Below are positions 2,354-2,779 of a stretch of DNA of 24,000 nucleotides, piece by piece (positions within the stretch are counted from its first letter, which is position 1; each line of letters starts with the position of its first letter). The translations under genes were made by a program, and so were the position numbers. The stretch comes from Mannheimia granulomatis. GTDB taxonomy: Bacteria; Pseudomonadota; Gammaproteobacteria; Enterobacterales; Pasteurellaceae. The notes beneath the pieces are model-generated. The model was given only the letters and a program-made list of their open reading frames with translations. It did not search any database and had not been told where the DNA came from. The stretch lies in NCBI RefSeq assembly GCF_011455695.1, contig NZ_CP015030.1, positions 1,825,716 to 1,849,715 on the forward strand, given 5' to 3'.

Positions 2354-2779
2354 ATGAGCCGATACCTCATCACTTTCGATATGGACACCAATTGTCTAAA
2401 AGAAAACTACCACGGCAATACATTCAATAATGCCTATTACGATATTCGCAACGTATTGAAACAGCACGGCTTTGAAAATTTGCAAGGGAGCGTTTATTTA
2501 GGTAATGAAGGCATTAGTGAGGCTCATGGAACCATTGCAATTCAAGAGCTTACCGCAAAATTTAAGTGGTTTTACCCTTGTGTATCGAATATCAAATTTT
2601 ATCGGATTGAAAGTGATTTAAATGCAGATTTCATCGCCTACAACGTGCATAAAGCACGAGAAAAATTTGAAAAGCAGTTACAGGTTTTAGAACAAACATT
2701 AGTTGATACAGGTTTAAGCCGCATTCAAATTGATGAAATTCTGAAAAAGCAGGTGTTTAGTTTAGAAGAACAATCGTAA
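2354..2779 (+). CDS. vapD: VapD-family (Cas2-like fold) putative endoribonuclease with a ~45-aa C-terminal extension
   Basis: 141-aa ORF with an SD (aaaagg) 8 nt upstream. The N-terminal ~95 aa carry motifs I recall for VapD proteins: Y-L-I-T-F-D-M near the N-terminus, NAYYDIR, GF-x3-QGSVY, and WF..V..I..YRIE. Family assignment is from memory of H. influenzae and H. pylori VapD, not a search. Confidence 0.8.
   Translation: MSRYLITFDMDTNCLKENYHGNTFNNAYYDIRNVLKQHGFENLQGSVYLGNEGISEAHGTIAIQELTAKFKWFYPCVSNIKFYRIESDLNADFIAYNVHKAREKFEKQLQVLEQTLVDTGLSRIQIDEILKKQVFSLEEQS

What the first reader, a model, noticed from the sequence alone, without database searches (positions are those of the whole stretch)
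2354..2779. VapD/Cas2-like nuclease with an extra ~45-aa helical C-terminal extension and no canonical upstream partner
The first ~95 residues carry the VapD hallmarks I remember: an N-terminal beta-strand ending in a conserved Asp (YLITFD), NAYYDIR, GF..LQGSVY, and WF..V..I..YRIE. That family has the Cas2 ferredoxin-like fold and ribonuclease activity in H. pylori and H. influenzae. The classical VapD proteins I recall are about 90-125 aa. This one continues with HKAREKFEKQLQVLEQTLVDTGLSRIQIDEILKKQVFSLEEQS, which is charged and heptad-like, suggesting a coiled coil or an appended interaction or autoinhibitory domain. In H. influenzae the antitoxin-like vapX lies upstream of vapD. Here nothing is upstream except terminators, and the only neighbour is a downstream unknown ORF. 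This is either an orphan toxin-like nuclease with a cis-acting extension or a reversed two-gene module.
Basis: partly seen in the sequence, partly recalled or inferred. Interest (0 to 1): 0.65.

Follow-up and report, generated by a model that had tools for sequence, protein, structure and literature searches.

The report
Stand-alone long VapD nuclease in dnaK–dnaJ
The ORF is a real gene for an already-known "long" type of VapD ribonuclease whose helical tail is a normal, conserved part of that subfamily; the one unexpected point is that it has sat alone between the heat-shock genes dnaK and dnaJ across many Pasteurellaceae genera.

Summary
ORF 2354..2779 (+) encodes a 141-aa VapD/Cas2-fold protein with a roughly 45-aa helical C-terminus and no VapX-like gene upstream.

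The novelty claim does not hold. The tail aligns end to end with the crystallised Xylella fastidiosa VapD (PDB 5DYR, E 4.9e-42, residues 1-139). It is also present in 80 loci recovered from Gamma- and Betaproteobacteria and on small plasmids. About a quarter of VapD cluster representatives carry a C-terminal extension of at least 36 aa. Solitary VapDs are common, about 50% in a 2025 census.

The downstream ORF is an unrelated small Cass2/GyrI-like protein. It occurs without vapD in M. varigena, and vapD occurs without it in Glaesserella, A. minor, H. paracuniculus and Lonepinella. The "reversed module" reading is therefore refuted.

One finding is new. vapD lies between dnaK and dnaJ in 13 loci beside the window, from about 9 genera, and is only 26-52 nt from dnaJ in three of those species. 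Its dN/dS is 0.014-0.066, similar to the chaperones. The only recognisable σ32-type promoter lies upstream of dnaK. vapD appears next to dnaJ in a published G. parasuis list of genes up-regulated at 41 °C with iron restriction.

Verdict: an ordinary member of a known family in a noteworthy, conserved heat-shock-operon context.

The parts
2354..2779 (+). vapD, long-form stand-alone VapD (141 aa). Cas2-like ferredoxin core is residues 1-~90; the conserved helical hairpin tail is residues ~92-132.
   Evidence: dN/dS is 0.014-0.066 against syntenic orthologues.
2627..2749 (+). Codons 92-132 of vapD: helices α3 (92-118) and α4 (123-132) joined by the nearly invariant G120. This is the 'extension' of the finding.
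   Evidence: AF2 secondary structure. Conserved across 24 long-form VapDs. Aligned to PDB 5DYR up to residue 139. Tail dN/dS is 0.02-0.25.
216..244 (+). σ32-type promoter-like motif CTTGAA-N13-CCCCTATTTA upstream of dnaK. It is the only such motif in the dnaK..dnaJ interval.
   Evidence: Read. The same motif was found upstream of dnaK in 11 of the 12 syntenic sequences scanned (all but Lonepinella L008). Nothing matched between dnaK and dnaJ apart from one looser hit inside the Frederiksenia Cass2-like ORF. It is a consensus match, not an experimental result.
316..2214 (+). dnaK (Hsp70), the upstream neighbour.
   Evidence: translation. Pfam HSP70 on orthologous genes.
2231..2257 (+). Intrinsic-terminator-like hairpin after dnaK (GGGGCGAAA-CATC-TTTCGCCCC + TTTT). 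An equivalent hairpin follows dnaK in all syntenic loci.
2312..2349 (+). Left copy of the 38-nt direct repeat: an extended Apl-type uptake-signal-like sequence (CAAGCGGT...AAATTTTGCAAA) directly upstream of vapD.
   Evidence: 36/38 identical to the right copy. CAAGCGGT occurs 15 times in the window against 0.62 expected. The extended consensus is seen at other copies.
2780..2817 (+). Right copy of the direct repeat, between vapD and the downstream ORF. M. varigena, which lacks vapD, has a single copy at this junction.
2811..3113 (+). Downstream ORF (100 aa from the ATG at 2811; a TTG at 2805 is also possible). It is a small Cass2/GyrI-like protein and not a vapD partner.
   Evidence: Homologues occur only in Mannheimia and a few relatives. 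The 125-aa relatives pass the Pfam Cass2 threshold. The best fold match is the integron cassette protein 3GK6, TMq 0.62. There is no similarity to VapD. It is present without vapD in L001.
3133..3303 (.). MITE-like insertion with 34-nt imperfect terminal inverted repeats, between the downstream ORF and dnaJ.
   Evidence: M. granulomatis has only one hairpin at this place.
3358..4494 (+). dnaJ (Hsp40), the downstream neighbour.
   Evidence: Pfam DnaJ domains on orthologues.

Best explanation
ORF 2354..2779 encodes a functional, stand-alone, long-form VapD. It has a Cas2-like ferredoxin-fold core that, by homology, dimerises to form a cleft with Asp9 and Ser46 and cleaves RNA.

The last ~45 residues are not an add-on. 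They form the subfamily's conserved helical hairpin (α3-turn-α4), a lengthened version of the C-terminal α3 element that other VapD structures use to clasp the partner subunit.

The gene has no antitoxin. The ORF downstream is an unrelated small Cass2/GyrI-like protein that came and went independently.

In this Mannheimia-like genome, as in at least nine Pasteurellaceae genera, vapD sits between dnaK and dnaJ. It is probably transcribed together with dnaJ, either by read-through from the σ32-type dnaK promoter or from an unrecognised internal promoter, so that a low level of the nuclease accompanies chaperone expression.

Shown here: family, fold, conservation of the tail, absence of a partner, synteny, purifying selection.
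Inferred: RNase activity, dimer-clasp role of the tail, co-transcription, stress linkage.
For: Family and fold:
- PDB VapD hits.
- Pfam Cas2 above its gathering score.
- AF2 pLDDT 91.9 with the VapD topology.
- Foldseek TM(target) 0.78-0.80 to H. pylori, C. jejuni and H. influenzae VapD.
- D9 is invariant; L15 and the Q44-G45-x-V47-Y48 loop around S46 (Ser in most members, Thr in several) are conserved. These align with the D7/L13/S43 needed for RNase activity in HP0315 (PMC3351183).
- The closest characterised relative, Xf-VapD (47% identity in the Foldseek alignment, tail included), is a thermostable RNase in vitro (PMC4687846).

Tail is family-typical:
-.
- A C-terminal α3 is used for homodimerisation in VapD structures (PMC11980593; PMC3351183).
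- Tail dN/dS is 0.02-0.25.

No partner:
- In L005, L007 and L084 vapD is 98-218 nt from dnaK and 26-52 nt from dnaJ, with no other ORF.
- No neighbour family is shared across the 80 loci.
- The downstream ORF is independent of vapD and has a different fold.

Operon context:
- Synteny in 13 loci beside the window.
- A σ32-like motif occurs only upstream of dnaK.
- dnaJ (HAPS_RS09165) and vapD (HAPS_RS09170) are both in the G. parasuis list of genes up-regulated at 41 °C with iron restriction (PMC6219065 supplement).
- vapD dN/dS is 0.014-0.066, against 0.014-0.11 for dnaK and 0.026-0.11 for dnaJ.
Against: - NCBIfam's VapD equivalog model scores 66.9 bits, below its cut-off of 100.
- The residue aligned with HP0315 D76 is Asn79 in this clade, although Xf-VapD has the same Asn and is active.
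- The monomer model superposes badly on 5DYR (TM 0.30, rmsd 17.7 Å over 130 columns at 47% identity). How the tail really packs is therefore not settled.
- The dnaK-vapD spacer holds at least one strong terminator-like hairpin and a second candidate. No promoter was recognised upstream of vapD.
- In the G. parasuis list the true dnaK tag, GrpE, GroEL and ClpB are absent. Co-regulation with the classical heat-shock regulon is therefore unproven.
- VapD distances track DnaK/DnaJ only partly (Mantel r 0.42-0.53).
Confidence: 0.8

Rival explanations
1. Orphan toxin with a cis-acting brake. vapD is the surviving toxin of a decayed type II TA pair, and its C-terminal helices fold back to inhibit the nuclease until stress or proteolysis releases it.
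For: - The gene is solitary with catalytic-type residues intact.
- Several VapDs are toxic and need VapX, VapY or VapW (PMC11980593).
- The AF2 monomer folds the tail back on the core.
- The tail evolves faster than the core.
Against: - The same tail is present in every genomic context, including 3.6-4.7-kb plasmids with 3-6 genes. It is also in the crystallised, RNase-active Xf-VapD construct, which lacked only the last 10 residues (PMC4687846).
- Solitary VapDs from H. pylori and D. nodosus are not TA components (PMC11980593; PMC3351183).
- Long-term purifying selection at a fixed chromosomal site is unlike decaying TA remnants.
- No remnant of an antitoxin ORF exists in any of the syntenic spacers.
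Confidence: 0.12
2. Reversed two-gene toxin-antitoxin module. vapD is the toxin and the downstream 100-aa ORF is a new antitoxin.
For: The two genes are 31 nt apart on the same strand. They co-occur in Mannheimia, Ursidibacter, Frederiksenia and Pasteurellaceae bacterium 'Macca'.
Against: - M. varigena keeps the ORF without vapD.
- G. parasuis, A. minor, H. paracuniculus, Lonepinella and Pasteurellaceae bacterium 15-036681 keep vapD without the ORF.
- The ORF is Cass2/GyrI-like. It is not an SH3 barrel like VapX/VapY and not VapD-like like VapW (hhalign probability 0.25%).
- It has no PADLOC hit.
Confidence: 0.03
3. Degenerate or solo Cas2 left from a lost CRISPR-Cas locus.
For: Pfam and PADLOC Cas2 models match. 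Some sources name the orthologue 'CRISPR associated protein Cas2'.
Against: - Matches to VapD structures and the VapD model are far stronger than those to Cas2.
- The flanks are dnaK and dnaJ, with no cas1.
- No repeat array exists anywhere in the 24-kb window.
- The gene is at the same non-CRISPR site in about 9 genera.
Confidence: 0.01

Closest known systems
Xylella fastidiosa VapD (Xf-VapD, plasmid pXF51; PDB 5DYR)
   Same: Same long-form architecture: Cas2-like core plus the helical C-terminal tail, collinear over residues 1-139 at E 4.9e-42 and 47% identity in the Foldseek alignment. Same Asp/Ser motif, and Asn at the HP0315-D76 position. No VapX/Y/W partner. Shown to be a thermostable RNase in vitro (PMC4687846).
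   Different: It is plasmid-borne, next to stbB and a 157-aa hypothetical gene, not between dnaK and dnaJ. It is about 10-20 aa longer at the C-terminus. The crystal chain does not superpose globally on the monomer model here (TM 0.30).
Helicobacter pylori VapD HP0315 (PDB 3UI3)
   Same: A stand-alone VapD that is not part of a TA system. Same core fold (TM target 0.79). D7, L13 and S43 are conserved as D9, L15 and S46. It is a dimer built through β4 and a C-terminal α3 (PMC3351183).
   Different: It is a short form (~94 aa) without the α3-α4 hairpin. It has Asp at position 76 where this clade has Asn79. Sequence identity is about 33%.
Haemophilus influenzae VapXD type II toxin-antitoxin (PDB 6ZN8, 6ZI0)
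   Same: Homologous VapD core (TM target 0.80) from the same bacterial family.
   Different: The toxin is short (~91 aa) and has the SH3-like antitoxin VapX encoded upstream. Here there is no VapX, VapY or VapW gene, and the protein carries the long tail.
Campylobacter jejuni VapWD (PDB 9KAN)
   Same: This VapD has an extended C-terminus with an extra α3 helix that contacts the partner subunit (PMC11980593). Core TM target is 0.78.
   Different: It is paired with VapW, an inactivated VapD paralogue. No VapD paralogue lies next to the window gene.

Membership tests
VapD family (Cas2-like ferredoxin-fold endoribonucleases) | Significant sequence similarity to experimentally studied VapD proteins | tested here: met
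   phmmer against PDB: 5DYR 4.9e-42, 3UI3 1.6e-8, 9KAN 7.5e-7, 6ZI0 1.1e-5.
VapD family (Cas2-like ferredoxin-fold endoribonucleases) | Curated profile thresholds (Pfam PF09827 Cas2; NCBIfam NF041506 VapD equivalog) | tested here: inconclusive
   Pfam: 30.3 bits against a gathering score of 23.8, so met. NCBIfam VapD: E 1.6e-18 but 66.9 bits, below the cut-off of 100, so not met. That model has 91 positions and covers residues 3-86 only.
VapD family (Cas2-like ferredoxin-fold endoribonucleases) | Modified ferredoxin fold β1α1β2β3α2β4 | tested here: met
   AF2 pLDDT 91.9 with elements E3-10, H12-18, H25-37, E40-44, E47-50, H56-69, E77-85. Foldseek TM(target) 0.78-0.80 to three VapD crystal structures.
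VapD family (Cas2-like ferredoxin-fold endoribonucleases) | Catalytic-cleft residues (HP0315 D7, L13, S43, D76) | tested here: inconclusive
   D9, L15 and S46 align with D7, L13 and S43. D9 is invariant in 24 homologues. The D76 position is Asn79 here and in most of the clade, including the active Xf-VapD.
VapD family (Cas2-like ferredoxin-fold endoribonucleases) | Homodimer; endoribonuclease activity | not testable with these tools
   Needs purified protein. Inferred only from Xf-VapD and HP0315 (PMC4687846, PMC3351183).
Long-form VapD subfamily (Xf-VapD type) | Conserved C-terminal α3-turn-α4 tail collinear with 5DYR | tested here: met
   Alignment to 5DYR through residue 139. Tail conserved in alignment A1, with G120 in at least 90% of sequences. 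80 loci matched by tblastn, most over residues 1-137 to 1-141.
Type II toxin-antitoxin systems VapXD / VapYD / VapWD | Adjacent gene for a cognate antitoxin (SH3-like VapX/VapY, or inactivated VapD paralogue VapW) | tested here: not met
   The upstream 139 nt hold no ORF. Orthologues are flanked directly by dnaK and dnaJ. The downstream ORF is Cass2/GyrI-like and unrelated to VapD. No neighbour is conserved across the 80 loci.
Type II toxin-antitoxin systems VapXD / VapYD / VapWD | Toxicity on overexpression, neutralised by the partner | not testable with these tools
   Requires expression experiments.
CRISPR-Cas adaptation module (Cas2) | Linkage to cas1 and a CRISPR array | tested here: not met
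   The neighbours are dnaK, a Cass2-like ORF and dnaJ. Tandem Repeats Finder found no array in the 24-kb window.
σ32 heat-shock operon dnaK-dnaJ (as a member gene) | Location inside the operon, on the same strand, without its own recognisable promoter | tested here: met
   vapD lies between dnaK and dnaJ in 13 loci beside the window. The σ32-like motif occurs only upstream of dnaK. No promoter-like site lies upstream of vapD on the + strand.
σ32 heat-shock operon dnaK-dnaJ (as a member gene) | Co-transcription with dnaK/dnaJ and induction by heat | tested here: inconclusive
   The vapD-dnaJ gap is 26-52 nt and unstructured in three species. vapD and dnaJ are both up in G. parasuis at 41 °C with iron restriction, but dnaK, GrpE, GroEL and ClpB are not in that list. 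Terminator-like hairpins lie between dnaK and vapD.

The most novel reading that the evidence does not exclude
A solitary, catalytically competent VapD nuclease has been domesticated as a resident gene of the dnaK-dnaJ heat-shock operon in a multi-genus Pasteurellaceae clade. It is expressed with DnaJ under stress and acts as a stress-coupled RNase. For example, it could trim mRNA or translation load while chaperones are induced, or it could be held in check by DnaK/DnaJ instead of by a dedicated antitoxin. Its flanking uptake-signal repeats would allow allele exchange and precise loss, as in M. varigena.
Probability: 0.25. Interest if true: 0.55.

Novelty: new member of a known kind. Interest (0 to 1): 0.3.

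Why it matters
The finding as written does not matter much. The protein belongs to a described VapD subfamily with a solved structure and a biochemically tested relative. Partner-less VapDs are already known to make up about half of the family.

The context is worth noting. The in-vivo role of stand-alone VapDs is an open question, since no cellular targets are known (PMC11980593). Here a stand-alone VapD sits at a fixed site inside a universally conserved stress operon, under chaperone-like purifying selection, with published transcriptome hints of co-induction with dnaJ. In addition, one natural deletion variant (M. varigena) lacks only vapD.

This gives a clean genetic system for asking what a solitary VapD does. 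The relevant species are veterinary pathogens (Mannheimia, Glaesserella), where vapD is routinely listed as a 'virulence-associated' gene without evidence.

Tried and rejected
1. Downstream ORF as antitoxin. Rejected by its presence/absence pattern, Pfam Cass2 in longer relatives, hhalign against VapD at probability 0.25%, and its fold match to integron cassette protein 3GK6 and BmrR.

2. The 38-nt flanking direct repeat as a transposon target duplication or att site. Rejected in favour of two copies of the genome-wide extended uptake-signal-like sequence: CAAGCGGT occurs 15 times against 0.62 expected, and other copies share the ...TTTTT...AAATTTTGCAAA extension. The two copies are unusually alike (36/38), and M. 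varigena has one copy at the empty site. This fits deletion by recombination between repeats, given that outgroups carry vapD at the same site.

3. A conserved neighbour across 80 long-form vapD loci. None was found. There are only lineage-specific syntenies: dnaK/dnaJ; gnd in Aggregatibacter and Rodentibacter; and mobile-element-like contexts in Gallibacterium and others.

4. Rfam search of 2100-3500. Only sub-threshold chance hits.

5. PADLOC. Only Cas2 models matched, with no defence-system partner.

6. A promoter for vapD. No σ70-like site on the + strand upstream and no σ32-like motif between dnaK and dnaJ.

7. Koide 2006 (Xylella heat-shock transcriptome, cited for VapD and stress) could not be read because it is not held. 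No claim is taken from it.

8. Literature on 5DYR and on a dnaK-vapD-dnaJ arrangement. Nothing was found in the held library.

9. Strict vertical inheritance of vapD with the operon. Only partly supported (Mantel r 0.42-0.53). Ursidibacter VapD is Mannheimia-like while its DnaJ is not.

Full report
**1. Observation**

ORF 2354..2779 on the + strand starts at ATG, ends at TAA and encodes 141 aa. The gene lies 139 nt downstream of dnaK (316..2214) and upstream of a 100-aa ORF (2811..3113) and dnaJ (3358..4494), all on the same strand.

**2. Family and fold**

- Pfam Cas2 (PF09827) is matched above its gathering score, at 30.3 versus 23.8 bits.
- NCBIfam's VapD model gives E 1.6e-18. At 66.9 bits it stays below the equivalog cut-off of 100 and covers only residues 3-86.
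- Six distinct VapD chains in the PDB are hit. The best is 5DYR at E 4.9e-42 over residues 1-139, which includes the tail. One search identifies 5DYR as VapD from Xylella fastidiosa, released in 2016.
- An AlphaFold2 model built on 24 homologues is confident (pLDDT 91.9). It shows the VapD/Cas2 topology followed by helices 92-118 and 123-132.
- The model core superposes on H. pylori, C. jejuni and H. influenzae VapD with target-normalised TM 0.78-0.80.
- Three of the four residues shown by mutagenesis to matter in H. pylori HP0315 (D7, L13, S43) align with D9, L15 and S46. D9 is invariant in the alignment.
- The fourth residue, D76, is Asn79 here and in most of the clade, including the active Xylella enzyme.

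**3. The tail is not new**

- Among the 120 closest homologues listed, lengths cluster at 140-148 aa with 98-100% query coverage. They come from Pasteurellaceae, Neisseria, Kingella and Moraxella.
- A scan of one genome per species recovered 80 loci, most matching residues 1-137 to 1-141. They span Gamma- and Betaproteobacteria plus a few other MAGs.
- Eighteen plasmid records carry the long form, including 3.6-4.7-kb plasmids of Klebsiella and Enterobacter and Xylella pXF51.
- A core-only search (residues 1-96) against 1.84 billion cluster representatives found 729 hits. Of the 126 best representatives with a complete core, C-terminal extensions beyond the residue-96 equivalent were:

| Extension length | Representatives |
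|---|---|
| ≤5 aa | 26 |
| 6-20 aa | 46 |
| 21-35 aa | 24 |
| 36-60 aa | 20 |
| >60 aa | 10 |

. The 90-95-aa 'classical' proteins are therefore the minimal end of a broad range.

- Within alignment A1 the tail shows a conserved pattern, A91-x-F93-I94 ... G120-L ... I-x-E-I ... F-x-L-E, with G120 nearly invariant.
- Tail dN/dS is 0.02-0.25, so it is under purifying selection, though weaker than the core at 0.003-0.03.
- Published VapD structures already describe a C-terminal α3 that binds the partner subunit in the homodimer (PMC3351183; PMC11980593).
- I infer that the α3-α4 hairpin is an enlarged dimer clasp. This step is inference. The monomer model fits 5DYR poorly as a whole (TM 0.30, rmsd 17.7 Å at 47% identity), and its pTM (0.69) is low for its pLDDT. 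Both would be expected if the tail is swapped between subunits, but I could not inspect the crystal assembly.

**4. No partner**

A 2025 census found that about 50% of VapD homologues have no associated protein. The known antitoxins are VapX and VapY (SH3-like barrels) and VapW (an inactivated VapD) (PMC11980593).

None of these is present here:
- The upstream spacer has no ORF.
- In Pasteurellaceae bacterium 15-036681, Actinobacillus minor and Glaesserella parasuis, vapD is separated from dnaJ by only 26-52 unstructured nucleotides, and from dnaK by 98-218 nt.
- Clustering all ORFs within 1.5 kb of vapD in the fetched loci found no family shared across lineages.

The downstream ORF has homologues only in Mannheimia and a few relatives. 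Its 124-125-aa relatives pass Pfam's Cass2 (integron-associated effector-binding, GyrI-like) threshold. Its model best matches the Vibrio integron cassette protein 3GK6 and then BmrR's ligand-binding domain. It has no similarity to VapD. M. varigena has dnaK-ORF-dnaJ without vapD, and five genera have dnaK-vapD-dnaJ without the ORF. The 'reversed module' reading is therefore refuted.

**5. What brackets the gene**

- A 38-nt direct repeat (36/38 identical) flanks vapD at 2312-2349 and 2780-2817.
- It begins with CAAGCGGT, which I recall as the core of the Actinobacillus pleuropneumoniae-type uptake signal. It occurs 15 times in the window against 0.62 expected.
- Other copies share the AT-rich ...AAATTTTGCAAA extension, so these are two copies of a genome-wide element and not a target-site duplication.
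- M. varigena's empty site has exactly one copy fused to the downstream ORF's ATG.
- Because outgroup genera carry vapD at the same site, loss by recombination between the repeats is the more parsimonious direction. This is inference.

**6. The conserved heat-shock-operon setting**

vapD lies between dnaK and dnaJ in the window and in 13 fetched loci:
- M. granulomatis
- M. indoligenes
- a Mannheimia record, LR134495
- Ursidibacter arcticus
- Pasteurellaceae bacteria 15-036681 and 'Macca'
- H. paracuniculus
- A. minor
- Lonepinella
- G. parasuis (two strains)
- Frederiksenia canicola (two records)

. More distant long-form genes sit elsewhere, for example next to queF in Avibacterium paragallinarum and next to gnd in Aggregatibacter and Rodentibacter.

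Promoter and terminator signals:
- A near-consensus σ32-type motif, CTTGAA-N13-CCCCTATTTA, lies at 216-244 upstream of dnaK.
- It recurs upstream of dnaK in 11 of the 12 syntenic sequences scanned (all but Lonepinella).
- Nothing similar lies between dnaK and dnaJ apart from one looser match inside the Frederiksenia Cass2-like ORF.
- A terminator-like hairpin follows dnaK in all loci, and the spacer is strongly structured, with MFE -51.7 kcal/mol and z -5.6.

Selection:

| Gene | dN/dS against the window |
|---|---|
| vapD | 0.014-0.066 (where dS is not saturated) |
| dnaK | 0.014-0.11 |
| dnaJ | 0.026-0.11 |

.

VapD distances correlate with DnaK and DnaJ distances (Mantel r 0.53 and 0.42; 6 and 17 of 5000 permutations reach the observed value). 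There are clear exceptions, such as Ursidibacter, that suggest occasional allele replacement.

Expression evidence from the literature:
- In G. parasuis, the adjacent genes dnaJ (HAPS_RS09165) and vapD (HAPS_RS09170) both appear in the supplementary list of genes up-regulated at 41 °C with iron restriction.
- The dnaK tag, GrpE, GroEL and ClpB do not appear in that list (PMC6219065).
- vapD is also differentially expressed between agar and broth growth (PMC6684057).

Co-transcription of vapD with dnaJ is therefore well supported where the gap is tiny. Control by the σ32 promoter is plausible but unproven.

I found no paper in the held library that mentions this arrangement.

**7. Mechanism**

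Most likely (confidence about 0.8 for identity and architecture) this is a stand-alone long-form VapD endoribonuclease. It would dimerise through β4 and the α3-α4 tail and carry a D9/S46 cleft. RNase activity is inferred from the relative Xf-VapD (47% identity in the Foldseek alignment; PMC4687846) and from HP0315.

It is probably made at low level together with DnaJ, with confidence about 0.5 for a genuine stress link.

Rivals:
- A cis-autoinhibited orphan toxin (0.12)
- A vapD-ORF TA pair (0.03)
- A relic Cas2 (0.01). There is no cas1 and no array.

**8. Verdict**

Its novelty claims (extra domain, unusual orphan status, reversed module) are not supported.

This is a new member of a known kind, and overall interest is low to moderate at 0.3. 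The residual interest lies in the conserved dnaK-vapD-dnaJ arrangement, which could make the unknown in-vivo role of solitary VapDs experimentally tractable.

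Noticed in passing
window 3133-3303: A ~170-nt element with 34-nt imperfect terminal inverted repeats (85% complementary). Each end carries the hairpin CCCCTCTTTnnnAAAGAGGGG. M. granulomatis has only a single hairpin at the same place, so this looks like a MITE-like insertion between the Cass2-like ORF and dnaJ. 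A related sequence lies upstream of vapD in Ursidibacter (L004).
   Followed up: partly
window 2312-2349 and 2780-2817; also 168, 3314, 8480, 15870, 21850 and others: CAAGCGGT, an uptake-signal-like motif, occurs 15 times in 24 kb against 0.62 expected. Many copies share an extended ...TTTTT...AAATTTTGCAAA consensus and sit just upstream of start codons. The two copies flanking vapD are 36/38 identical. M. varigena, which lacks vapD, has one copy at the junction.
   Followed up: partly
L006 4460-5000, L009 4248-5000, L008 5433-5681, L086 3968-4345: The dnaK-dnaJ spacer is an accretion hot spot in this clade. Besides vapD it holds a lipoprotein-like ORF (H. paracuniculus), a membrane-protein ORF (Pasteurellaceae bacterium 'Macca'), an extra 246-nt stretch with possible coding capacity between vapD and dnaJ (Lonepinella), and a Cass2/GyrI-like ORF (Mannheimia, Ursidibacter, Frederiksenia, 'Macca').
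   Followed up: partly
window 2811-3113: The downstream 100-aa ORF is a shortened Cass2/GyrI-like protein, an integron-cassette-type effector-binding fold. It is 33% invariant across 15 homologues and ends in a conserved ...NPHC. Its function is unknown, and it sits within the chaperone operon even where vapD is absent.
   Followed up: partly
L004 (Ursidibacter) versus window, L086 and L009: Ursidibacter VapD is only 5-6% divergent from Mannheimia VapD, while its DnaJ is 12% from Mannheimia and 5% from Frederiksenia and 'Macca'. G. parasuis, A. minor and H. paracuniculus VapDs also group against the DnaJ pattern. This suggests occasional inter-genus allele replacement at this locus.
   Followed up: partly
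L013 1865-2098 (Neisseria sicca 4.3-kb contig); L093 2181-2504; L092 2024-2497: On plasmids, the gene just upstream of long-form vapD overlaps or abuts its start codon, but it differs each time: a 77-aa HTH-like protein in Neisseria, MobS in Moraxella osloensis, and a 157-aa hypothetical protein in Xylella pXF51. Whether any of these acts as an antitoxin is unknown.
   Followed up: no
PDB 5DYR versus model m36b79b95f044: The monomer model and the Xylella crystal chain share 47% identity yet superpose with TM of only 0.30 and rmsd 17.7 Å. The crystal chain may be domain-swapped or extended. No paper in the held library discusses 5DYR.
   Followed up: no
window 216-244: A near-consensus σ32 heat-shock promoter motif, CTTGAA-N13-CCCCTATTTA, lies about 70 nt upstream of the dnaK start codon. 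It was found upstream of dnaK in 11 of the 12 syntenic sequences scanned (all but Lonepinella).
   Followed up: yes
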